Part shown: positions 8,952-16,911 of the stretch, piece after piece
How the letters are laid out: each line of letters starts with the position of its first letter
Position numbering within the stretch: the stretch's first letter is position 1
DNA from: Rhodothermales bacterium
Lineage (GTDB): Bacteria; Bacteroidota; Rhodothermia; Rhodothermales; DATKEJ01
Assembly: GCA_965222505.1 (NCBI GenBank)
Contig: OZ244956.1
Coordinates: 788,581 to 852,580 of the forward strand
Direction of reading: 5' to 3'
Length of the DNA: 64,000 nucleotides
The notes under the pieces: model-generated
Seen by the model: the letters and a program-made list of their open reading frames with translations, nothing else
Databases searched by the model: none
What the model was told of the DNA's origin: nothing
Translations under genes and position numbers: made by a program

Positions 8952-9551
8952 ATGACAGGAATCTTTTTTAGTACAGCAAACGAGGCCGGCCCGTTCCTGA
9001 CCGGCTATTACCGGGGCCGGTTCGACGGCCTCTCTGAAGGGGAAAGCGCACAGGACGATCAGGTCTTGATTGCCCTGACGGGTGTGGGCAAAATCAAAGC
9101 CACCCTTCGTACGGAGCGGTTACTTCGGTCCAATACACTCACCCGGTTGATCCACATCGGCACCTGCACGGCGCTGGATTCGGAAACGGAAACCGGCACC
9201 CTCTTTGCTATTGAAAAAATCCTGGAAGGCGACCGCATCGAACTGGCTGCACCGGCCTACCCACGCATGCCATTGGCGACCCCATTTGATGGCCTTCCTA
9301 AAGCCACCCTCGTTACGCAGGATCATACCCTCAACACCGAAGAGCAAAGCTACTGGCAGCGTATTGCCACGGTTTCAGATACCGTTGGGTACCCCATTGC
9401 GTTTGTCGCAGCCACGTACGGCATCCCTTGCATCCAATTGAAAGTGGTAGCGGGCCATGCCGGAAAACAAGATACTAACCTTCGCCGCACCCTTGCCAGT
9501 GCGTATGAGAAAATGGCCGCATTTTTATTGGAGGAAGTTGTTAGTGGTTAG
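8952..9551 (+). CDS. PNP_UDP_1 (nucleoside phosphorylase) family protein, MTA/SAH nucleosidase-like or futalosine hydrolase-like
   Basis: 199 aa; ...VLIALTGVGKIKA... resembles the Pfs/MqnB glycine-rich motif. The length fits futalosine hydrolase better than Pfs. Confidence 0.45.
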   Translation: MTGIFFSTANEAGPFLTGYYRGRFDGLSEGESAQDDQVLIALTGVGKIKATLRTERLLRSNTLTRLIHIGTCTALDSETETGTLFAIEKILEGDRIELAAPAYPRMPLATPFDGLPKATLVTQDHTLNTEEQSYWQRIATVSDTVGYPIAFVAATYGIPCIQLKVVAGHAGKQDTNLRRTLASAYEKMAAFLLEEVVSG

Positions 9552-9583
9552 CCTGTCGTCCGCCGCTTCGCAGCGGTGCGGCT

Positions 9584-11101
9584 TTAAGGTATCTGAGAGG
9601 CTTGCCCATTTGCCGGCAACCATACATTGAGGTAGTCGAATGCCGTCACCCCTCCCGACAGGTTAAAATCGCCTTGGTGATAACCTGGAGAACTGCCGTT
9701 TTGTTGAAGCCAAACGCTGAGAAAATCAAATGCCGTAATCGCGCCATCGCTGGTGCCGTCACCGCCCCACAGCACAAAATCCCCGTCTATATTCCTCATG
9801 GGCTGTGTGCCATAGGCTTGACCTAAGCTAACCGTAAAATCGTATGCGGCAGTCGTACTTTCAGTCAGAGGCACCGGTGCAACCGTCATTACACCCGCAT
9901 GATTGCGATGTTCGACCACGATGTAGTACTCCCCTGCAGGTACGGCTTCAAATACAAGCGAACTACTTCCATCAAGATCTCGAATGAACCCGTTTGAAAG
10001 AAGAAACCCGGCCCGACCGGCTACCGTTGACGCGGCATTCGGTGCACTTCGCAGATGAACCAATACCCAGTCGACAACATTCTCCGGGACGGCTTGAACT
10101 GTTTCAGTGCCTTCATAATTCCAGGGTGCTCCGGCAAAGGGATGGGAAAGCGGAATATGCATTCCACTTTGCAAATCGGTATGCATGGTGCCAGCGTCAA
10201 ATGGCCCTGCAAGAAAGACCTTAATATCCGTCGGTAAGTTCACGTCGGCCGCCAACAGAAATTCTCCCATCCCTGCAACTCCCGTCAAGACGAGTTCATT
10301 TTCCGAAACATCATAACTGGTAGCTACAGGAATAAATGTACCAAACCCCGGCTCGGACCGTCTATAGGCCACCACACCTGACGGATCGGTAAAGCCCGGA
10401 TTGGATAGTTCATCCAGCGCAATTCGAATTTCAGTAGCAGGATCGAATGTGAGACCCTCTCGTATATGCACCTCCCATCGGTGCTCAAATACAGTATTAT
10501 GGGTAACGCCGGTCGTAGCACTGGGCGGCTGGTCGTAGTAACTAACGGAAACCATAGTGGTATCAACAAATTGAACCGTATTGACACCCACAAAGTCAAT
10601 GGTATAAGCCGTACTTTGAAAATCAAATGTGCCATCTCCTCCCACAATGACCGTAGCTACACCGGCTGGTAGGACTCCGGTTACACAAAAAGCCAGCCAT
10701 TGATTCGGAGGAAAATTGGTCTCATCAAATGTGGTGCCGGGATTGATCCAACTCTGCCCACTCCACCAAATTCCATCCCCATTGGAAACCGTGTATTGTT
10801 TTACATAGTGCGCAGTAAAAAACTTCCAGCGGTACGGAAGTGGTGTGGCTCGAAACTCCAACCCGATAAAATTCTCCAATACATCACCGGCATTCTGTTG
10901 AAGCGATGATGACTGATAGGGAGACGATCCCAACCATCCAATGCTTTCAGTAGAACGACAGGCTCCTTCGGTAGGAATGGTTTGCGCCCAAACAGGAATA
11001 GTGAGACAGCAGGATACAACCAAACCAATGCTAAACAGAATACCAGCGTTGTAACTCATTGGTACATGCGGTTTGATGAGGGAAAGAATATGGCGAAACA
11101 A
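9584..11101 (-). CDS. Secreted hypothetical protein with a C-terminal pair of dockerin-like (Ca-binding-loop-like) repeats
   Basis: 505 aa. Signal peptide (probable start around 11059, MSYNAGILFSIGLVVSCCLTIPVWAQT). C-terminal repeats DGDFVLWGGDGTSDGAITAFDFLSVWL / QGDFNLSGGVTAFDYLNVWL. Confidence 0.4.
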   Translation of the reverse strand: MFRHILSLIKPHVPMSYNAGILFSIGLVVSCCLTIPVWAQTIPTEGACRSTESIGWLGSSPYQSSSLQQNAGDVLENFIGLEFRATPLPYRWKFFTAHYVKQYTVSNGDGIWWSGQSWINPGTTFDETNFPPNQWLAFCVTGVLPAGVATVIVGGDGTFDFQSTAYTIDFVGVNTVQFVDTTMVSVSYYDQPPSATTGVTHNTVFEHRWEVHIREGLTFDPATEIRIALDELSNPGFTDPSGVVAYRRSEPGFGTFIPVATSYDVSENELVLTGVAGMGEFLLAADVNLPTDIKVFLAGPFDAGTMHTDLQSGMHIPLSHPFAGAPWNYEGTETVQAVPENVVDWVLVHLRSAPNAASTVAGRAGFLLSNGFIRDLDGSSSLVFEAVPAGEYYIVVEHRNHAGVMTVAPVPLTESTTAAYDFTVSLGQAYGTQPMRNIDGDFVLWGGDGTSDGAITAFDFLSVWLQQNGSSPGYHQGDFNLSGGVTAFDYLNVWLPANGQASQIP

Positions 11102-11105
11102 CTGA

Positions 11106-12599
11106 TCATGAACGAATTTGAACTGTTCTGATCAGTTGTCGCGTCACCTCGCGGATAAGTTCACGTCTATGCCTGAGGAGTCGTTTTTCACCAGCGGCAC
11201 TTTGCTGACCTTCAAGCAGCAAATTGGGAACAACAACCGCTGGACTTACGACGTATGTATATTCCCAGGGGATGCTGGATACGGAAGGAGGGCTATTCAT
11301 CATACGGCGTAAGCGTACCCTATTTCTTTCATGCGCCTTTTCAAGGTCCGCGATAGTGTCGGTCAGTTCGTTTCTGTATTGAACAAGCTCGATTTCTTTT
11401 TTGAACTTCTTTTCTTGCGATGCTCGCGTATAGGCCAGCGTCAAGGTATTTCTGCTGGCTTTTGATTCATTAATCAACGTCCGAAGTTCAGCATTGTATT
11501 TTTGAATTACACCGTTGATGACTGCGGCATTCTTCACTTTCCTTTGCACATCAAAAGTGATACGTATCGGCTCTGCAGCCCATGATTCCAATTCATGAGA
11601 CCCAAGCCAAACTATACTGCCGGATACAACACTAATAAGTTTGGCATTAAACTCGACACGTAGCCATTTGGAAGGCACCCGTGCCGGTAAGGCATCGGGT
11701 AACGAACCAAATTTTAACCCAGGATTTGCTTGTAGAAATGACTTGACTTCAGGCAACTCCTGGATATTGAGCATACGATTTTCTGCATCGTTTACGGCTA
11801 AACCATTGATCTGAAGCACATAGTCGGCTTGGTCACTTCCCGTCTGTGCTGCCCGAATCACTTCTGCGATGTCGATCATTTCATCTTCCGTACGCTTGTG
11901 TCCGGGTAACCCGATTTGGCTGATTTCGTCAACTTCGCTGATTCTTTTTATGTAGTCTTTTTGCGTCAATACGCCACTTTTCAGTTGTTCTGCCAATAGT
12001 GATTTGAGGGCATCATATTCCTTGTTTTCAATCAGTCGTTCGTAGTTAGTCCACCAGTATCGGGTATCATTTGCCCGGTCGCGCAAATCCCGAAGCTTGG
12101 CTTCAAATTTTGAACGATCCAATACATTAAAACCCTGCCGCAAGAGGGCAGCTTCAATGGCCTGTTCAGCCTCATTGTAATAGCCGTCGGTCCTGAAGAC
12201 CTCATGAAGGCCCCGTCCTACCGCTTCACTTTCCTGTCGTCCCTCGGTACTGCTCAACGATTGCGATGTGGCCTTATCAGGAACAGCGATGATTACCGAA
12301 GGAGCAGTATCCGGCTTGTTACGGCTTGCCCCTGGATTGTTATAATAGGCATCCGTATTTGGCGCAACGGTTTGTGCTAATGAAATCACGAGCCGGCTCC
12401 GTTCCTCCTCGGGAACGGGCCGTTCGGCAATATATTTCACTTCCAATACGGCCGATACGTCAGGGGGTGTAGTATACAAAGGCTTGAATACCTTTGGCCC
12501 ACAGCCGGCACCAATAATAGCAAAAAGAATCACAAATAATTGCAGCCTAATCATATCATGGCTTCTCTTTAGTTCCGAGACTCGTGTGTTAAAGCACAT
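11106..12599 (-). CDS. Hypothetical lipoprotein with an extended coiled-coil region; co-operonic with the 9584-11101 gene (4-nt gap)
   Basis: Probable start MIRLQLFVILFAIIGAGCG (lipobox AGC); K/E/R-rich coiled-coil-like stretches. Confidence 0.4.
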   Translation of the reverse strand: MCFNTRVSELKRSHDMIRLQLFVILFAIIGAGCGPKVFKPLYTTPPDVSAVLEVKYIAERPVPEEERSRLVISLAQTVAPNTDAYYNNPGASRNKPDTAPSVIIAVPDKATSQSLSSTEGRQESEAVGRGLHEVFRTDGYYNEAEQAIEAALLRQGFNVLDRSKFEAKLRDLRDRANDTRYWWTNYERLIENKEYDALKSLLAEQLKSGVLTQKDYIKRISEVDEISQIGLPGHKRTEDEMIDIAEVIRAAQTGSDQADYVLQINGLAVNDAENRMLNIQELPEVKSFLQANPGLKFGSLPDALPARVPSKWLRVEFNAKLISVVSGSIVWLGSHELESWAAEPIRITFDVQRKVKNAAVINGVIQKYNAELRTLINESKASRNTLTLAYTRASQEKKFKKEIELVQYRNELTDTIADLEKAHERNRVRLRRMMNSPPSVSSIPWEYTYVVSPAVVVPNLLLEGQQSAAGEKRLLRHRRELIREVTRQLIRTVQIRS

Positions 12600-12689
12600 G
12601 GTTTTCTATATCTATTAAATACGATGTTTTTTCTCCCCTGTAGACACCCGTGGTTCCTTTTTTTCGACATACCACCGGCTCAACCTTGA

Positions 12690-13307
12690 GTGCCAACCAT
12701 ATTTAGGCTATTTTGGGAGCACGCACCTACTCTAGATCCTTGTCTCACAACCCGTATGGCTTCTATTACCGGACTTCTTGTACAGTGGAAGGATGGCGAT
12801 ACCGAAGCTGGTAACCAACTGTTCAACCTCATCTACCAAGACCTCCACCTCCTCGCACAGCGGCAACGAAAGGGGTGGGAGCACCTCGAAACATTTAATA
12901 CAACGGCACTCGTACACGAGCTCTTTCTGAAATGGGACAAAGCAGCCCATATAACGGCAGAAGACCGACGGCAGCTTTATTTTTTCGCTGCACACGCCCT
13001 TCGCAATATTTTAGTTGATTACGCCCGTTCCAAAAAACGAAAGAAGCGAGGAGGCAGCCGACGCAACACTACACTACACGATATACATGATAACTCGGTA
13101 GCATTAGAAATAGAGGACATCCTGGCCCTTAATTCCGCTATCGATACGCTACGAACCCAAAGTACAAGATTGGCAGATGTTGTAGAATTGCATTTCTTCG
13201 GTGGGTTTTCATATACCGAAATTGCGGACACTTTAGGAGTAACCAAACGTACCGTCGCCCGCGATTGGCTAAAGGCCAAAACCCTACTTTATCGTACATT
13301 ACGGTAA
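12690..13307 (+). CDS. ECF-type RNA polymerase sigma factor of the kinase-associated (Sig70_X6/ECF43-like) type
   Basis: Region-2-like ...ALVHELFLKW... and region-4 HTH ...DVVELHFFGGFSYTEIADTLGVTKRTVARDW... The true start is probably the internal Met near 12756. A Ser/Thr kinase gene lies immediately downstream. Confidence 0.75.
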   Translation: MPTIFRLFWEHAPTLDPCLTTRMASITGLLVQWKDGDTEAGNQLFNLIYQDLHLLAQRQRKGWEHLETFNTTALVHELFLKWDKAAHITAEDRRQLYFFAAHALRNILVDYARSKKRKKRGGSRRNTTLHDIHDNSVALEIEDILALNSAIDTLRTQSTRLADVVELHFFGGFSYTEIADTLGVTKRTVARDWLKAKTLLYRTLR

Positions 13308-13341
13308 CGGTTTCCCTATCCGACACCAAACCTGTACCCTC

Positions 13342-16056
13342 ATGCATGCACCCAAATGGTCACGCATCGAAGCAATACTAGACCATGCCCTCACCTTGTC
13401 TGGCCCCAAAAGAACAGCGTACATCGACAAAGCCTGTGCACACGATCCAACACTCAAGGATGAAGTTTACCGTCTGCTGGAAGATATGGCTAAAGCAGAG
13501 GCAAGTTCTTTCCTCAAGCAACCAGCCGGTTATGAACTTCAGAATTTAGCACGTCAGGCTTTCGCTTCGGACGCAGACGAATGGATCGGACAAACCCTGG
13601 GGGGATATCGGGTGCTAGAACATATTGGAAGCGGGGGTATGGGATCCGTTTACCTTGCCAAACGAGTCGATGAATCATTTCATCAGCAAGTAGCCATCAA
13701 ACTCATAAAACGGGGCATGAATACCGATAGAGTGATCCGGCGCTTTGTCCGTGAGCGACAAATCCTTGCCCAGCTACGTCATCCCCATATTGCACGCCTG
13801 ATTGATGGCGGCGTAACCGAAGATGGCCTCCCCTATTTTGTGATGGACCATATCGAAGGGCTACCCCTCATATCCTATTGTGATACATATACTTTGACAG
13901 TTGGTGAGCGCATTGATTTGTTTCAGCAAATTTGCGAGGCTGTACGATATGCCCATCAAAATCTGATCGTACACCGTGACCTAAAACCTAGCAATATCCT
14001 CGTTACACCAGCCGGACAAGTCAAGTTATTGGACTTCGGTATTGCCAAAATGCTGGACTATGGTCAACCCGATCAAACCCGTACGGACACTCAAATCCTC
14101 ACCCCTGCCTATGCAGCCCCTGAGCAAATTAAGCGTGAACCGATTACCACAGCTACCGATGTATATGCTTTAGGTATTTTGCTCTATGAGTTGCTCACCG
14201 GCCATCGACCATACCGAGTCGCAAACAAAACGTATGAAGACTTGATCCATGCCATTTGCAATACCATACCGATACGACCCAGTATGGCGATATCACAAGT
14301 ATCGGAGAATAAAGACGGTAGTCGCATATCCCCTGATTCACTTAGTGCAAAACGTCGAACGACTCCGGCGCAACTCAAACGCCGGCTACGCGGAGACCTC
14401 GATACCATCACTCTAATGGCGCTTCGCAAGGAACCCTCTCGTCGGTATCCTTCAGCAGACGCAATGTTGGTCGATCTCAATTCACATGTGGCAGGAATGC
14501 CGATTACAGCCCAAAAAGACACTTTTGGATATCGAGCCGGTAAATTCGTCCGAAGGCACAAGTGGGGCGTCACTGTGACCCTTGTTGGTGTGCTTGCGGG
14601 GTTGGGATTTACATGGCAGTTGGTTCAGGAGCGTAACCGCGCCGAAACCAAGGCCGCTGAAGCGGAGGCCGTATCCAACTACCTCGTATCGCTTTTTGCA
14701 GCACCCGATCCCTTTTCCTATCGAAGTGGCGATTATGAGGATGTAGATGCCGACACCCTCCGCGTTGCTGATTTCCTGAGACTGAGCGCCAAGCGCGTGG
14801 AGTTAGACTTGAATGACCAGCCTGCCGTCAAAGCATTACTGTTAAGCACGATGGGCACGGCTTTTCAAAACTTATCCGATCTGGAGACGGCTGAGCACTT
14901 AATCTCTACCAGCATTGGATTACGCAGTGAGCTGGGCAAAACAGAACAGGAGAACGTGGTAAAATCATTAGCAACCCTCGCAGATATTAATCTTGATCAA
15001 GGGCAATATCAGACAGCTGATTCTTTGTATAAACACGCATTAGAACTTAGCCAAACACTAGATGACACTCCCAATGTACAAACAGCAGTAATTTACAATG
15101 GAATGGGGATCGTCGAACTCAGGAAGGGCAATTATGTAGAGACAGAGGCTTTGTTCAGAGAAGCACTCTCCATTAGACTTGAGCGCCTTCCCCCTGAACA
15201 CAATGACATCTTTCAATCATACAATAACCTAGGGGCTGTGCAAATGAGACAGGGGAAATATGACGAAGCTGAGCAAAATTATAACCGTTGTCTTGAATTC
15301 GATAAGGTACACCTGGGCTTAGATCACCCTGGTACAGCCATTACCCTTGGAAATTTAGCAACGGTTGCATACCAAAAAGGCGATTATGATAAATCTGAAC
15401 GCCTGAACCGTGAAGCATTAGCCATTCGGCGGCAACGACTGGCTCCAGAAAATTCATACATCTCCCAGAACCTTAACAATCTAGCGACAACTTTAAGGGC
15501 AAAAGGCAATTATGACGAAGCGCTAGCCCTTTTTAAGGAAGCCCGCAGCCTTTTCCATTTGATCCAAGGCAGTGAGAGTTCTGGTGTAGCGATCTCTCTG
15601 CTGAATATTGGCACCACCTTAGGTTTACAGGACAAGAATGAAGAAGCCCTGGAGATGCTCTATGACGCACTGGAAATGTGGAAGCGTCTGTTCGGCCCAG
15701 CGCATCCTCGAATTGCGCAAACGATGATGCAAATTGGCATTGTCCTCATGGAAGAAGGCCAACTAGATGAGGCTGAGGCCTTTCACCGGCAAGCACTCGC
15801 AATGAGACAAGAACTCATTGGTACCGATCATCCAGACATTGCCGCTTCAAAAAGCAATTTAGGTGTTGTACTTACGGCCCAAGGTGCACTTGAAGAAGCT
15901 GAACCATACCATTTGCAAGCGGTTGACCTAGCTATAAAATCACTCGGTCAAACCCACCCCTACACCCAGACATACGTACGTAACACTGTTGCCCTCTATG
16001 AGACTTGGAACCGGCCGGAACAGGCCGCAACCTATCGAGAACGGCTGACGGAGTAG
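13342..16056 (+). CDS. Ser/Thr protein kinase with a C-terminal TPR-repeat domain
   Basis: 904 aa; GxGxxG ...LEHIGSGGMGSVYLA..., VAIK, HRDLKPSNILV, DFGIAK, APE motifs; one TM segment; multiple TPR repeats (...YNNLGAVQMRQGKYDEAE...). Confidence 0.9.
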   Translation: MHAPKWSRIEAILDHALTLSGPKRTAYIDKACAHDPTLKDEVYRLLEDMAKAEASSFLKQPAGYELQNLARQAFASDADEWIGQTLGGYRVLEHIGSGGMGSVYLAKRVDESFHQQVAIKLIKRGMNTDRVIRRFVRERQILAQLRHPHIARLIDGGVTEDGLPYFVMDHIEGLPLISYCDTYTLTVGERIDLFQQICEAVRYAHQNLIVHRDLKPSNILVTPAGQVKLLDFGIAKMLDYGQPDQTRTDTQILTPAYAAPEQIKREPITTATDVYALGILLYELLTGHRPYRVANKTYEDLIHAICNTIPIRPSMAISQVSENKDGSRISPDSLSAKRRTTPAQLKRRLRGDLDTITLMALRKEPSRRYPSADAMLVDLNSHVAGMPITAQKDTFGYRAGKFVRRHKWGVTVTLVGVLAGLGFTWQLVQERNRAETKAAEAEAVSNYLVSLFAAPDPFSYRSGDYEDVDADTLRVADFLRLSAKRVELDLNDQPAVKALLLSTMGTAFQNLSDLETAEHLISTSIGLRSELGKTEQENVVKSLATLADINLDQGQYQTADSLYKHALELSQTLDDTPNVQTAVIYNGMGIVELRKGNYVETEALFREALSIRLERLPPEHNDIFQSYNNLGAVQMRQGKYDEAEQNYNRCLEFDKVHLGLDHPGTAITLGNLATVAYQKGDYDKSERLNREALAIRRQRLAPENSYISQNLNNLATTLRAKGNYDEALALFKEARSLFHLIQGSESSGVAISLLNIGTTLGLQDKNEEALEMLYDALEMWKRLFGPAHPRIAQTMMQIGIVLMEEGQLDEAEAFHRQALAMRQELIGTDHPDIAASKSNLGVVLTAQGALEEAEPYHLQAVDLAIKSLGQTHPYTQTYVRNTVALYETWNRPEQAATYRERLTE

Positions 16057-16114
16057 GAGCCTTTTCCCTAATGAGTACGCAGATGCATTACTGGGACAGG
16101 GGGGGTACGATGGG

Positions 16115-16426
16115 CTAGTTGCAGCGCTCCTGTAGGTCCTTGATCCAGGCAAGGGGTAGGCCACCACCGGCCATGCCTCGGATGTATTGGTAGTCGGTAT
16201 CGCTGTTGCGCATGAAGCGCTGTTGGTCCTCACGGATCTCCTTGAACCCTACAGATACCGGTTCGCCCACGCGGCGGGCTTGTTCCCGGATGTAGACGGG
16301 TTCACGTTCAAAGGGCCGAGCCTGCTCCGGTACACAAATCCGATAGGCCATCGTCGCACCCCACACGATCAGAAAGAAAATGATCGGGATAATCACCATC
16401 ACGAAGAGGAGCGCAATCGGATGCAT
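16115..16426 (-). CDS. Small single-TM hypothetical protein at the distal end of the cox operon
   Basis: 103 aa; one hydrophobic helix; overlaps the subunit-IV gene stop by a few nt, consistent with co-transcription. Confidence 0.3.
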   Translation of the reverse strand: MHPIALLFVMVIIPIIFFLIVWGATMAYRICVPEQARPFEREPVYIREQARRVGEPVSVGFKEIREDQQRFMRNSDTDYQYIRGMAGGGLPLAWIKDLQERCN

Positions 16427-16437
16427 GGATATTCAAA

Positions 16438-16911
16438 CTATTGTGTCGGTCCCTTCGGATTGGGGAAGCGGGTAGAATCCGGGGTATTGACCAACGGCTG
16501 TGCCTCGAACTGAGGGCGTACGATTTCATCGCGTTCGCCGAGGACTTGTTCCTCAGCCTCGCGGTCTTTTACGGTAATCGCCTTGTCGGCCTCAAAAAAG
16601 CCGCGGAAATTGGTATCAAGCAGCGTGATACCGATGAAGACCAGCACAAACAGGGACCCCACGACGAACACCATCATGTTTACCCGAGTGTCATACCAGA
16701 GGGCCATAAAAAACATCACCACCAGTGCGGCCTTCGCTACTGCGATGGCCAGAGCCAGCGGCACGTTAAACATGCCGAGGTCTACATATTCGGCGGTCAG
16801 GTACGTCACAATCGTCAGGATGATGAGTGCGGCAAAGACGCCGTAGAGGATTTTCCACGGTGTCTTGTGGTGCCCGTGGTTTTCGTCGTGTGCAGTGTGT
16901 TCGGTTGCCAT
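16438..16911 (-). CDS. Cytochrome c oxidase subunit IV (prokaryotic caa3-type, CtaF/CoxD-like)
   Basis: 157 aa; three TM helices; His-rich N-terminus; positioned after subunit III. Confidence 0.55.
   Translation of the reverse strand: MATEHTAHDENHGHHKTPWKILYGVFAALIILTIVTYLTAEYVDLGMFNVPLALAIAVAKAALVVMFFMALWYDTRVNMMVFVVGSLFVLVFIGITLLDTNFRGFFEADKAITVKDREAEEQVLGERDEIVRPQFEAQPLVNTPDSTRFPNPKGPTQ

What the first reader, a model, noticed from the sequence alone, without database searches (positions are those of the whole stretch)
9584..16056. ECF sigma factor plus TPR-containing Ser/Thr kinase module divergent from a lipoprotein and dockerin-like secreted-protein operon
A kinase-associated type ECF sigma (12690-13307) is followed 35 nt later by a 904-aa eukaryotic-like Ser/Thr kinase (TM segment plus TPR repeats). 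No classical anti-sigma gene is present. The sigma factor is transcribed divergently from a two-gene operon (11106-12599 coiled-coil lipoprotein; 9584-11101 secreted protein whose C-terminus carries two dockerin/EF-hand-like DGD...DG...AFDFL repeats). These may be the regulon targets. Sigma regulation by phosphorylation rather than by an anti-sigma factor has been proposed for this ECF class but remains poorly characterised, and neither target protein has a recognisable family.
Basis: partly seen in the sequence, partly recalled or inferred. Interest (0 to 1): 0.65.

Follow-up and report, generated by a model that had tools for sequence, protein, structure and literature searches.

The report
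Kinase-switched ECF sigma factor gene block
This is an ordinary new example of an already characterised bacterial switch, in which a membrane Ser/Thr kinase activates an ECF43-type sigma factor by phosphorylation; the two neighbouring envelope-protein genes have not been shown to be its targets.

Summary
All four ORFs exist at the stated coordinates, with slightly shorter likely starts. The sigma (12756-13307) is a PF07638/TIGR02999 (ECF43-type) factor. It has N-T-T-A where canonical ECF sigmas carry the acidic DAED patch, and Thr50 is invariant in 40/40 relatives. The 904-aa kinase has the same architecture as Xanthomonas PknS, and the PknS crystal construct is its best PDB match, including the N-terminal extension. 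This mechanism was demonstrated for EcfP/PknT (2020) and EcfK/PknS (2026), so it is no longer poorly characterised. The sigma-kinase pair is conserved: 45/54 relatives have the kinase directly downstream.

The proposed regulon link is not conserved. None of 38 lipoprotein-family loci has such a sigma or kinase, and none of 84 sigma-family loci has the lipoprotein or secreted protein. No shared promoter motif was found.

Both "unknown" proteins can now be described. The lipoprotein has a PelC/LpoB/CsgG-like fold with coiled coils and belongs to a widespread unnamed family. The secreted protein ends in an X-module-dockerin (XDoc) dyad.

Two hints keep a link open. All four genes share an atypical GC3 (0.45 versus 0.60-0.76 in the flanks), and in a near relative a second ECF43/kinase pair lies next to another XDoc paralog.

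Verdict: new member of a known kind, with modest interest.

The parts
9584..16056 (.). Compositionally distinct four-gene block (GC 0.47-0.50, GC3 0.449-0.455)
   Evidence: the four genes have GC3 of 0.449, 0.449, 0.451 and 0.455. All 19 other window genes tested have GC3 of 0.60-0.76. The borders are sharp, at about 9.55 kb and 16.06 kb. No flanking direct repeats were found, and none of the four genes is an integrase.
12756..13307 (+). ECF43-type sigma factor, 183 aa (the long ORF starts with GTG at 12690)
   Evidence: PF07638 E 1e-39; TIGR02999 167 bits against a cut-off of 126. Identical to the 183-aa database protein P0119, with more than 1700 family members.
12897..12908 (+). N48-T49-T50-A51 in sigma region 2.2; T50 (12903-12905) is the predicted phospho-acceptor
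   Evidence: T50 is invariant in 40/40 relatives. The profile alignment to M. tuberculosis SigL places NTTA opposite Q-A-E-D. The literature gives the ECF43 consensus as QTTA and EcfP as STTA, with the second Thr phosphorylated (PMC13147305, PMC8999054).
13068..13073 (+). T105-T106 in the sigma2-sigma4 linker, just after KKRGG; a candidate second phosphosite
   Evidence: Column 106 is S, T, D or E in 26/40 relatives. EcfK T106 is a functional linker phosphosite (PMC13147305). The equivalence is inferred from position only; no EcfK sequence was available to align.
13342..16056 (+). PknS-like transmembrane Hanks Ser/Thr kinase, 904 aa
   Evidence: Pkinase E 5e-50 and TPR_12 E 1e-87. The best PDB hit for residues 3-380 is 9eed_A (PknS 1-364), E 8.8e-49. 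Relatives' kinases align over the full length at 35-37 % identity.
13342..13590 (+). Kinase N-terminal helical extension (residues 1-83)
   Evidence: Conserved in sigma-adjacent kinases (W6, L12, AL16-17, R24, D35, L38, EV41-42, LL45-46, FL57-58). The profile hits PknS residues 6-66 at E 8e-9 and hits no anti-sigma domain. No Pfam match.
14560..14625 (+). Single transmembrane segment of the kinase (residues about 407-428)
   Evidence: This is the only strongly hydrophobic 19-residue window (Kyte-Doolittle 1.74). It places the TPR domain outside the cytoplasm; the topology is inferred.
14809..16053 (+). Extracytoplasmic TPR domain of the kinase (residues about 490-904)
   Evidence: Seven TPR_12 and seven TPR_10 stretches. 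Only 9 of 25 relatives' kinases share a TPR ectodomain.
12555..12755 (.). 201-nt divergent intergenic region (GC 0.44)
   Evidence: No sigma-70-like site above chance. No motif is shared with the upstream regions of 74 related sigma genes.
11106..12554 (-). Lipoprotein, 482 aa, with a PelC/LpoB/CsgG-like alpha/beta fold and long coiled-coil hairpins
11091..11146 (-). Stable RNA hairpin spanning the lipoprotein stop codon, between the two genes
   Evidence: Inverted repeat I6. Folds at -28.4 kcal/mol, z -4.2, with 0/200 shuffles folding as well. It is followed by a U-rich but non-canonical tail. Its function was not tested.
9584..11059 (-). Sec-secreted modular protein, 491 aa (the long ORF starts with TTG at 11101)
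   Evidence: Identical to P0083. Only the C-terminal ~45 % has close relatives, including at least six paralogs in the same 5.3-Mb genome.
10250..10672 (-). ~140-aa domain (P0083 residues 130-270) shared with large surface proteins
   Evidence: An exhaustive phmmer scan finds 194 cluster representatives. In 6 of the 7 hits scanned with Pfam, the domain lies just upstream of a T9SS Por_Secre_tail sorting domain. Mature residues of about 25-128 have no relatives.
9764..10249 (-). X-module-like beta-sandwich (P0083 residues 271-432)
9587..9763 (-). Dockerin-like module with two F-hand repeats (P0083 residues 433-491)
   Evidence: Sequence GDGTSDGAITAFDFL...GDFNLSGGVTAFDYL. Dockerin_1 E 0.0056, below threshold. 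It is part of the XDoc structural match. DNA repeat D10 corresponds to the two repeats.

Best explanation
The right half of the block is a two-gene signalling unit of the ECF43 / EcfK-PknS type.

**Proposed mechanism.**
- The sigma factor lacks the acidic DAED patch in region 2.2 that normally contacts the RNA polymerase beta-prime clamp. It is therefore expected to be inactive on its own.
- The adjacent membrane kinase has an N-terminal helical extension, a Hanks kinase domain, one TM helix and a TPR domain outside the cytoplasm. It senses an unknown envelope signal and phosphorylates the sigma.
- The target is the invariant Thr50, and possibly also Thr105/106 in the linker. Phosphorylation supplies the missing negative charge.
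- The sigma can then bind core polymerase and transcribe its regulon.

**The left half.** This is a two-gene unit for envelope proteins. One is an outer-membrane-type lipoprotein with a PelC/LpoB/CsgG-like fold and coiled coils. The other is a Sec-exported modular protein whose C-terminus is an X-module-dockerin dyad, probably a surface-anchoring module.

**History.** The four genes share an atypical codon composition, so they probably arrived or evolved together. That these envelope genes are the sigma's targets is possible but not shown, and the adjacency is specific to this lineage.

**What is shown and what is inferred.** Shown here: family membership, motif and architecture, conservation of the pair, the folds of the two envelope proteins, and non-conservation of the four-gene arrangement. 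Inferred from the published systems: phosphorylation itself, its site, its effect and the topology.
For: - The sigma scores above the curated cut-offs for PF07638 and TIGR02999.
- NTTA aligns to SigL's QAED, and T50 is invariant in 40/40 relatives.
- A kinase lies directly downstream in 45/54 related loci, and in 4/4 of the closest long contigs with a gap of 3-43 nt.
- The kinases co-align over the full length.
- The best PDB hit for the kinase cytoplasmic portion is PknS 1-364, including the N-terminal extension.
- The catalytic motifs are intact and there is a single TM segment.
- The published mechanism comes from EcfP/PknT and EcfK/PknS (PMC8999054, PMC13147305).
- Lipoprotein fold. XDoc fold.
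- Uniform GC3 of the four genes.
Against: - There is no experimental evidence for this organism.
- The sigma is only 45-47 % identical to its nearest non-self relative, and I could not align it directly to EcfP or EcfK.
- Formal ECF Hub classification was not possible. The identification of PF07638/TIGR02999 with ECF43 rests on the motif, the genomic context and my own knowledge.
- For EcfK, T51A is still functional in vivo (PMC13147305), so the single-site model may be too simple.
- No target promoter was identified.
Confidence: 0.8

Rival explanations
1. The divergent lipoprotein/XDoc-protein operon is the direct regulon of this sigma. The four genes would form one functional module in which an envelope signal switches on production of a surface-display or secretion device.
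For: - The operon is divergent from the sigma across a shared 201-nt intergenic region.
- All four genes share the same atypical GC3, which suggests a shared history.
- Both products are envelope proteins, which fits typical ECF regulons.
- In a near relative, a second ECF43/kinase pair lies divergent from a secreted beta-helix protein and 2 kb from another XDoc paralog.
- A third XDoc gene is directly divergent from a canonical ECF/anti-sigma operon.
- Precedent: EcfK/PknS is encoded within the T6SS cluster that it controls (PMC8999054).
Against: - 0/38 lipoprotein-family loci have an ECF43 sigma, a TPR kinase or an XDoc protein within 10 kb, and the family has no conserved neighbour at all.
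- The closest lipoprotein relatives (55-56 % identity) sit next to an amidase gene instead.
- 0/84 sigma-family loci contain either protein.
- The upstream genes of the closest sigma relatives are unrelated: SMC in two loci and a four-gene operon with a VWD protein in two others.
- No shared bipartite motif was found.
- A strong hairpin separates the two genes, so they may not be expressed equally.
- The XDoc/ECF co-occurrence is 2 of 4 independent loci, a small and post-hoc sample.
Confidence: 0.3
2. The four genes are neighbours only because they were acquired together on one horizontally transferred fragment, or because they lie in a variable genomic region. The sigma's real targets would be elsewhere in the genome.
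For: - There is a sharp compositional island with uniform GC3 between housekeeping genes (MetF, a PNP-like gene and the cox operon).
- The neighbourhood is not conserved on either side.
- Both the lipoprotein family and the sigma-kinase pair occur as stand-alone units in many phyla.
Against: - No mobility gene, tRNA-like border or flanking repeats were found.
- The XDoc module is most similar to paralogs in the same genome and lineage, so a distant donor is unlikely for that gene.
- The recurrence of ECF modules beside XDoc genes argues weakly for function.
Confidence: 0.45
3. The sigma is controlled mainly by something other than the adjacent kinase, such as an unlinked anti-sigma factor or transcriptional control. 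The kinase would have other substrates.
For: - Only 45/54 relatives have a kinase directly downstream.
- The rest of the genome could not be inspected.
Against: - The acidic sigma2.2 patch is replaced by NTTA with an invariant Thr.
- The tight 34-nt spacing and the co-conservation of sigma and kinase across relatives argue for a functional pair.
- The kinase carries the PknS-type N-terminal extension that is found in sigma-adjacent kinases.
Confidence: 0.05

Closest known systems
EcfK / PknS of Xanthomonas citri (ECF43 sigma with its Hanks receptor kinase; PMC13147305)
   Same: - The gene order is sigma followed by kinase.
- The kinase architecture matches: an ~83-aa N-terminal helical extension, a Hanks domain, one TM segment and periplasmic TPRs.
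- The PknS(1-364) structure is the best PDB match over residues 3-380, and the extension is homologous.
- The sigma has a Thr at the sigma2.2 position (T50 here, T51 in EcfK) and S/T residues in the linker (T105/T106 here, T104/T106 in EcfK).
   Different: - The sigma motif is NTTA here and QATE in EcfK, so there is no residual acidic residue here.
- The TPR region is much longer: at least seven TPR_12 stretches over about 415 residues, against three TPRs in PknS.
- The genomic context is a lipoprotein/XDoc operon rather than a T6SS cluster.
- The host is different and unidentified.
- Sequence identity to characterised members could not be measured directly.
EcfP / PknT of Vibrio parahaemolyticus (Iyer et al. 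2020, as summarised in PMC8999054)
   Same: - The sigma2.2 motif has no acidic residue at all (STTA in EcfP, NTTA here).
- The second Thr is the phospho-acceptor in EcfP and is invariant here.
- There is no anti-sigma factor.
   Different: - EcfP responds to polymyxin and controls resistance genes. The signal and regulon here are unknown.
- The kinase ectodomains differ across the group; only 9/25 sampled relatives have TPR.
- The primary paper was not available, so its promoter motif could not be compared.
Type II X-module-dockerin (XDoc) dyads of cellulosomal scaffoldins (C. thermocellum CipA, A. cellulolyticus ScaA)
   Same: - The module is C-terminal on a secreted modular protein.
- Relatives carrying 2-3 cohesin domains plus the same module exist.
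   Different: - Identity is only 14-16 %, and the Pfam Dockerin_1 hit is below threshold.
- No carbohydrate-active domain is present.
- The homologs that carry a taxon name come from Bacteroidales and Chitinophagaceae, and the paralogs are in the window's own genome. The window's host is unidentified but has a lipobox lipoprotein with a PelC-like fold.
- No cohesin partner was identified in the window.
PelC / LpoB / CsgG-type outer-membrane lipoproteins
   Same: - There is an N-terminal lipobox Cys.
- The location is envelope-associated.
   Different: - The protein is about three times larger than PelC, with helical inserts and a ~75-residue coiled-coil hairpin.
- There is no sequence-level family match.
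- There are no pel or curli genes nearby, and no conserved neighbours anywhere.
- The oligomeric state is unknown.

Membership tests
ECF43 (kinase-regulated ECF sigma factors) | Sequence membership in the sigma family (PF07638 Sigma70_ECF / TIGR02999) | tested here: met
   PF07638 scores 136.8 bits against a cut-off of 21.1. TIGR02999 scores 167 bits against 126.15. Both matches are full length. That these models correspond to ECF43 rests on my own knowledge together with the features in the rows below.
ECF43 (kinase-regulated ECF sigma factors) | Acidic DAED/DxxD patch of sigma2.2 replaced by uncharged residues, with a conserved Thr (consensus QTTA) | tested here: met
   N48-T49-T50-A51 is present. 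T50 is conserved in 40/40 relatives. The motif aligns to Q-A-E-D of M. tuberculosis SigL. The consensus and the phosphosite come from PMC13147305 and PMC8999054.
ECF43 (kinase-regulated ECF sigma factors) | A Hanks-type Ser/Thr kinase encoded next to the sigma | tested here: met
   The kinase starts 34 nt downstream. The same arrangement is seen in 45/54 related loci and in L043-L046.
ECF43 (kinase-regulated ECF sigma factors) | No co-encoded anti-sigma factor | tested here: met
   There is no anti-sigma domain in the four products or in the kinase N-terminal extension. The rest of the genome is outside the window and could not be checked.
ECF43 (kinase-regulated ECF sigma factors) | Assignment by the ECF Hub / ECF Finder group HMMs | not testable with these tools
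   Those models are not available here, and the supplements of PMC7826278 are not held.
ECF43 (kinase-regulated ECF sigma factors) | Group-specific target promoter motif upstream of sigma or neighbouring genes | tested here: inconclusive
   No published motif was accessible. De novo dyad and k-mer searches on 75 upstream regions gave nothing above shuffled controls.
ECF43 (kinase-regulated ECF sigma factors) | Phosphorylation of the sigma by the kinase, and phosphorylation-dependent binding to RNA polymerase | not testable with these tools
   This requires biochemistry.
PknS-type receptor kinase | Intact Hanks catalytic motifs | tested here: met
   GSGGMG 96, VAIK 117, HRDLKP 211, DFG 231 and APE 259 are all present.
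PknS-type receptor kinase | Conserved N-terminal helical extension preceding the kinase domain | tested here: met
   A profile of 23 extensions hits PknS (9eed_A) residues 6-66 at E 8e-9. The full cytoplasmic alignment covers residues 3-380 against 6-360, E 8.8e-49.
PknS-type receptor kinase | Single TM helix followed by periplasmic TPR repeats | tested here: met
   There is one hydrophobic segment at 407-428, and the TPR_12/TPR_10 repeats lie at 490-904. The periplasmic location is inferred from this topology.
Dockerin (Pfam PF00404) / type II XDoc dyad | Sequence match to the Dockerin_1 model above the gathering threshold | tested here: not met
   The score is 17.3 bits (E 0.0056) against a cut-off of 22.9. 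I therefore describe the module as dockerin-like and do not claim it as a Pfam member.
Dockerin (Pfam PF00404) / type II XDoc dyad | Two tandem F-hand calcium-binding loops, each followed by a helix | tested here: met
   The loops are D-G-T-S-D-G-A-I-T-A-F-D and D-F-N-L-S-G-G-V-T-A-F-D, followed by helices 443-453 and 473-483 in the model. D445, D464 and D475 are nearly invariant in the family.
Dockerin (Pfam PF00404) / type II XDoc dyad | Fold match to X-module plus dockerin | tested here: met
   [not shown]
Dockerin (Pfam PF00404) / type II XDoc dyad | A cognate cohesin partner in the same organism | not tested
   Only the 64-kb window was available. Relatives from other samples combine 2-3 cohesin domains with the same C-terminal module.
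PelC / LpoB / CsgG-fold lipoproteins | Lipoprotein signal peptide with a lipobox Cys | tested here: met
   The N-terminus reads MIRLQLFVILFAIIGAG-C18, and C18 is invariant in 44 homologs.
PelC / LpoB / CsgG-fold lipoproteins | Structural similarity of the alpha/beta domain | tested here: met
   [not shown]
PelC / LpoB / CsgG-fold lipoproteins | Sequence membership in a named family | tested here: not met
   There is no Pfam or NCBIfam hit at E <= 0.1. I describe the fold resemblance only.
PelC / LpoB / CsgG-fold lipoproteins | Ring-shaped oligomer at the outer membrane | not testable with these tools
   This would need multimer modelling or experiment.

The most novel reading that the evidence does not exclude
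In this lineage, genes for surface proteins that end in an X-module-dockerin dyad would be recurrently placed under ECF sigma control. The ECF modules are either kinase-switched ECF43 pairs (the window and L129) or a classical sigma/anti-sigma pair (L130).

In these proteins the XDoc module sits where related proteins carry the T9SS sorting domain. The window block would then be a self-contained, horizontally mobile cassette with three parts:
- a sensor, formed by the kinase and sigma;
- a PelC-like outer-membrane lipoprotein;
- a dockerin-tagged cargo protein.

Together these would amount to a signal-induced, cohesin-dockerin-type surface-display system that has nothing to do with cellulosomes.
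Probability: 0.12. Interest if true: 0.6.

Novelty: new member of a known kind. Interest (0 to 1): 0.3.

Why it matters
The sigma-kinase pair adds one more divergent, TPR-rich member to a class whose mechanism is already established, so it does not open a new question by itself.

Its practical value is as annotation:
- The sigma should be labelled ECF43-type and phosphorylation-dependent.
- The kinase should be labelled PknS-like.
- The two "hypothetical" neighbours should be labelled as a PelC/LpoB-fold lipoprotein and an X-dockerin-tailed secreted protein.

Three side observations are of more general use:
- The kinase's N-terminal extension was described as conserved in Xanthomonadaceae. It is in fact shared by sigma-adjacent kinases from very different bacteria, which makes it a good candidate for the sigma-docking element.
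- A widespread ~480-aa PelC-like lipoprotein family has no name and no function.
- A family of secreted proteins carries an XDoc module in the position of a T9SS sorting domain. If the link to ECF control held up, it would point to regulated cohesin-dockerin surface display outside the cellulosome world.

Tried and rejected
- **Generic promoter and terminator scan of 9300-16500.** Counts were at or below the shuffle expectation, so the scan was uninformative.
- **De novo motif search for an autoregulatory ECF promoter.** I tested 5+4 and 4+4 dyads with 15-19 nt spacers and 6-8-mers, on both strands, in 75 upstream regions and in a low-GC subset. Nothing exceeded the shuffled controls.
- **Published ECF43 promoter motif.** Iyer et al. 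2020 is not held. The supplements of the ECF reclassification paper are not held. The PknS paper gives no motif.
- **Island borders.** No flanking direct repeats or att-like sites were found, and there is no integrase among the four genes.
- **Lead that P0062 and P0091 share a 10,463-nt contig.** This was a coincidence: L127 has no lipoprotein homolog.
- **Empty-site test using a close relative.** L128 is syntenic (permease, MetF and the 8952-9551 gene), but the contig ends before the block.
- **Organism identity.** Exact-sequence look-ups gave singleton clusters without names, even for CoxI and MetF, so the host remains unidentified.
- **Anti-sigma-like nature of the kinase N-terminal extension.** No PDB or Pfam match to anti-sigma domains was found; the only significant hit is PknS itself.
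- **phmmer of the sigma against PDB.** No hit; a family profile was needed.
- **AFDB fold search for the lipoprotein.** The library was unavailable.
- **Paralogs within the window.** There are no other copies of any of the four genes and no other ECF sigma in the 64 kb.

Full report
**1. What is in the sequence**

Three starts are probably a little further in.
- Sigma: the family models begin at residue 23 of the long ORF, and the database holds exactly the 183-aa form that starts with ATG at 12756.
- Lipoprotein: the database form is 482 aa, starting at 12554. It reads MIRLQLFVILFAIIGAG-C18, and Cys18 is invariant in 44 homologs.
- Secreted protein: the database form is 491 aa, starting at 11059, with a signal peptide ending VWA-Q.

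The true divergent intergenic region is therefore 12555-12755 (201 nt, GC 0.44). The sigma-kinase gap is 34 nt.

**2. The sigma-kinase pair**

The sigma scores above the curated cut-offs for PF07638 and TIGR02999 over its full length.

According to the literature, ECF43 is defined by three things: a co-encoded Hanks kinase, the absence of an anti-sigma factor, and replacement of the acidic DAED/DxxD patch of region 2.2 by uncharged residues with a conserved Thr. The consensus is QTTA. EcfP has STTA, and its second Thr is phosphorylated by PknT (PMC8999054, PMC13147305, PMC7826278).

The window's sigma has N48-T49-T50-A51 at this position.
- In an alignment with 39 relatives, T50 is invariant.
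- A family-profile alignment to M. tuberculosis SigL puts NTTA opposite Q-A-E-D.
- The linker carries T105-T106 after the KKRGG motif. Column 106 is S, T, D or E in 26/40 relatives. This recalls EcfK's second functional phosphosite, T106 (PMC13147305), but the equivalence is positional inference only.

The kinase has all the Hanks motifs, one hydrophobic segment (about 407-428) and a long TPR_12/TPR_10 region after it. Its first 83 residues form a conserved extension.
- The extension is shared by the kinases that follow related sigma genes.
- A profile of the extension hits residues 6-66 of PDB 9eed_A at E 8e-9 and hits no anti-sigma domain.
- 9eed_A is the 364-residue PknS construct. It is also the best PDB match for the whole cytoplasmic portion (residues 3-380 against 6-360, E 8.8e-49), ahead of StkP and PknB.
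- PknS is described as an 83-aa N-terminal extension, a kinase domain, a TM helix and periplasmic TPRs (PMC13147305), which is the same layout.

The pairing is conserved.
- In the four closest relatives on long contigs, the sigma is followed after 3-43 nt by an ~880-900-aa Pkinase+TPR protein, which in L046 is called as two ORFs.
- These proteins align with ours over the full length.
- In a sample of 84 related loci, 45 of the 54 with enough downstream sequence have a kinase domain directly downstream.

The right half of the finding is therefore a clear member of the EcfK/PknS-EcfP/PknT class.

**3. Are the divergent genes the regulon?**

I tested this from both sides.

*From the lipoprotein side.*
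- The lipoprotein belongs to a conserved ~480-aa family. It has 82 homologs, and the named sources and loci include Bacteroidota, Gemmatimonadota, Verrucomicrobiota, Planctomycetota, Campylobacterota and Gammaproteobacteria.
- In 38 genomic loci with up to 10 kb on each side, none has an ECF43 sigma, a TPR kinase or a relative of the secreted protein.
- Clustering of all flanking ORFs finds no conserved neighbour of any kind.
- The closest relatives (55-56 % identity) sit between an amidase gene and an unrelated gene.

*From the sigma side.*
- None of the 84 loci contains either protein.
- The genes upstream of the closest sigma relatives are SMC in two loci and an unrelated four-gene operon in two others.

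*Promoter motif.* No bipartite motif or k-mer is shared by the 75 upstream regions above shuffled controls. No published ECF43 motif was accessible.

**4. Two observations that keep a link open**

*Shared composition.* The four genes have GC3 of 0.449, 0.449, 0.451 and 0.455, whereas all 19 other window genes tested have 0.60-0.76. The borders are sharp. No border repeats or mobility genes were found. The four genes therefore share a history, most simply a joint horizontal acquisition.

*A paralogous locus.* The secreted protein has at least six paralogs in the same 5.3-Mb genome that share only its C-terminal module. A contig from a very close relative (L129) carries a 96 %-identical copy of one paralog. 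About 2 kb from it lies a second PF07638 sigma plus kinase, 38-46 % identical to ours. That pair is divergent from a secreted beta-helix protein, and all these genes have native GC3.

*Other loci of the family.* Another family member (L130) is directly divergent from a classical ECF sigma/zf-HC2 anti-sigma operon. Two others (L131, L127) have no sigma nearby.

*How strong is this?* Leaving out the ascertained window, 2 of 4 loci have an ECF sigma within about 3 kb, while the window itself shows one ECF sigma per 64 kb. This is suggestive, but the sample is small and post hoc. I put the probability that the lipoprotein operon is a direct target at about 0.3.

**5. What the two "unknown" proteins are**

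*Secreted protein.* It is modular.
- The first ~100 mature residues have no relatives.
- Residues 130-270 are a domain found in 194 cluster representatives. In 6 of the 7 hits scanned with Pfam, it lies just upstream of the T9SS Por_Secre_tail domain.
- The two repeats fit F-hand calcium loops, and Dockerin_1 scores just below threshold.
- Relatives that combine 2-3 cohesin domains with the same C-terminal module exist in other samples.

A stable hairpin (-28.4 kcal/mol, z -4.2) spans the lipoprotein stop codon. It may modulate read-through into the secreted-protein gene.

**6. Verdict**

The classification of the sigma and kinase is right, but the system is a new member of a known and mechanistically characterised kind.

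The regulon proposal is unsupported by conservation or motif evidence and remains a minority possibility.

The most novel reading still allowed is that ECF modules recurrently control X-dockerin-tailed surface proteins in this lineage, with this block acting as a mobile sensor-plus-cargo cassette. I give this a probability of about 0.12.

The host organism could not be identified.

Noticed in passing
window 9584-16056: The four genes form a sharply bounded low-GC3 block (0.449-0.455, against 0.60-0.76 for 19 other genes). It lies between a PNP-like gene and the cytochrome oxidase operon. No integrase or border repeats were found. It is likely a horizontally acquired island.
   Followed up: partly
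window 11106-12554 (-); loci L001-L042: The lipoprotein belongs to a widespread, unnamed ~480-aa family. Its named sources include Bacteroidota, Gemmatimonadota, Verrucomicrobiota, Planctomycetota, Campylobacterota and Gammaproteobacteria. It has a PelC/LpoB/CsgG-like core with coiled-coil inserts, an invariant lipobox Cys and no conserved gene neighbours. Shorter (~385-400 aa) variants also occur.
   Followed up: partly
L129 10001-14135: A contig from a very close relative carries an XDoc paralog (96 % identical to P0084 of the window's genome), a 605-aa beta-helix protein with a weak Peptidase_G2/IMC hit, and divergently a second ECF43-type sigma with a kinase. The sigma is split by a frameshift in this 3x assembly. 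All these genes have native GC3 (0.67-0.71).
   Followed up: partly
L130 7524-11905: Another XDoc-family gene is directly divergent (148-nt gap) from a classical ECF sigma, a zf-HC2 anti-sigma and two DUF4252 genes. This is a second type of ECF module beside this protein family.
   Followed up: no
window 10250-10672 (-); proteins P0244-P0392: Residues 130-270 of the secreted protein form a ~140-aa domain without a Pfam model. In other bacteria it sits immediately upstream of the T9SS C-terminal sorting domain in large surface proteins. Here an X-dockerin module takes the place of that sorting domain.
   Followed up: partly
window 13342-13590 (+); kinases in L043-L126: The ~60-80-aa N-terminal extension of the kinase (W..R.E.L.D.AL.L....R..YL...C..D..L..EV..LL....FL) is conserved in sigma-adjacent kinases from very diverse metagenomes and is homologous to PknS residues 6-66. 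The PknS paper described it only as conserved in Xanthomonadaceae. It is a candidate sigma-docking element.
   Followed up: partly
window 11091-11146 (-): A strong RNA hairpin (-28.4 kcal/mol, z -4.2) covers the stop codon of the lipoprotein gene, just before the secreted-protein gene. It may be an attenuator or an mRNA-processing or stabilising element.
   Followed up: partly
L045 1859-6792 and L046 1946-6847: Two related sigma-kinase loci share a divergent four-gene operon of unknown proteins (about 212, 418, 304 and 675 aa, the last with a VWD domain) and a downstream M64 peptidase. This is a different conserved neighbourhood for this sigma subfamily.
   Followed up: no
window 9552-9583: A GC-rich stem-loop (CCGCACCGCTGCGAAGCGGCGG) lies between the convergent 8952-9551 gene and the secreted-protein gene. 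It is probably a bidirectional terminator without a T-run.
   Followed up: no
The source genome (a 5.3-Mb contig) therefore has no close named relative in the collections. Only low-coverage metagenome contigs (ERZ25072999, SRR30410474) come from near relatives.
   Followed up: partly
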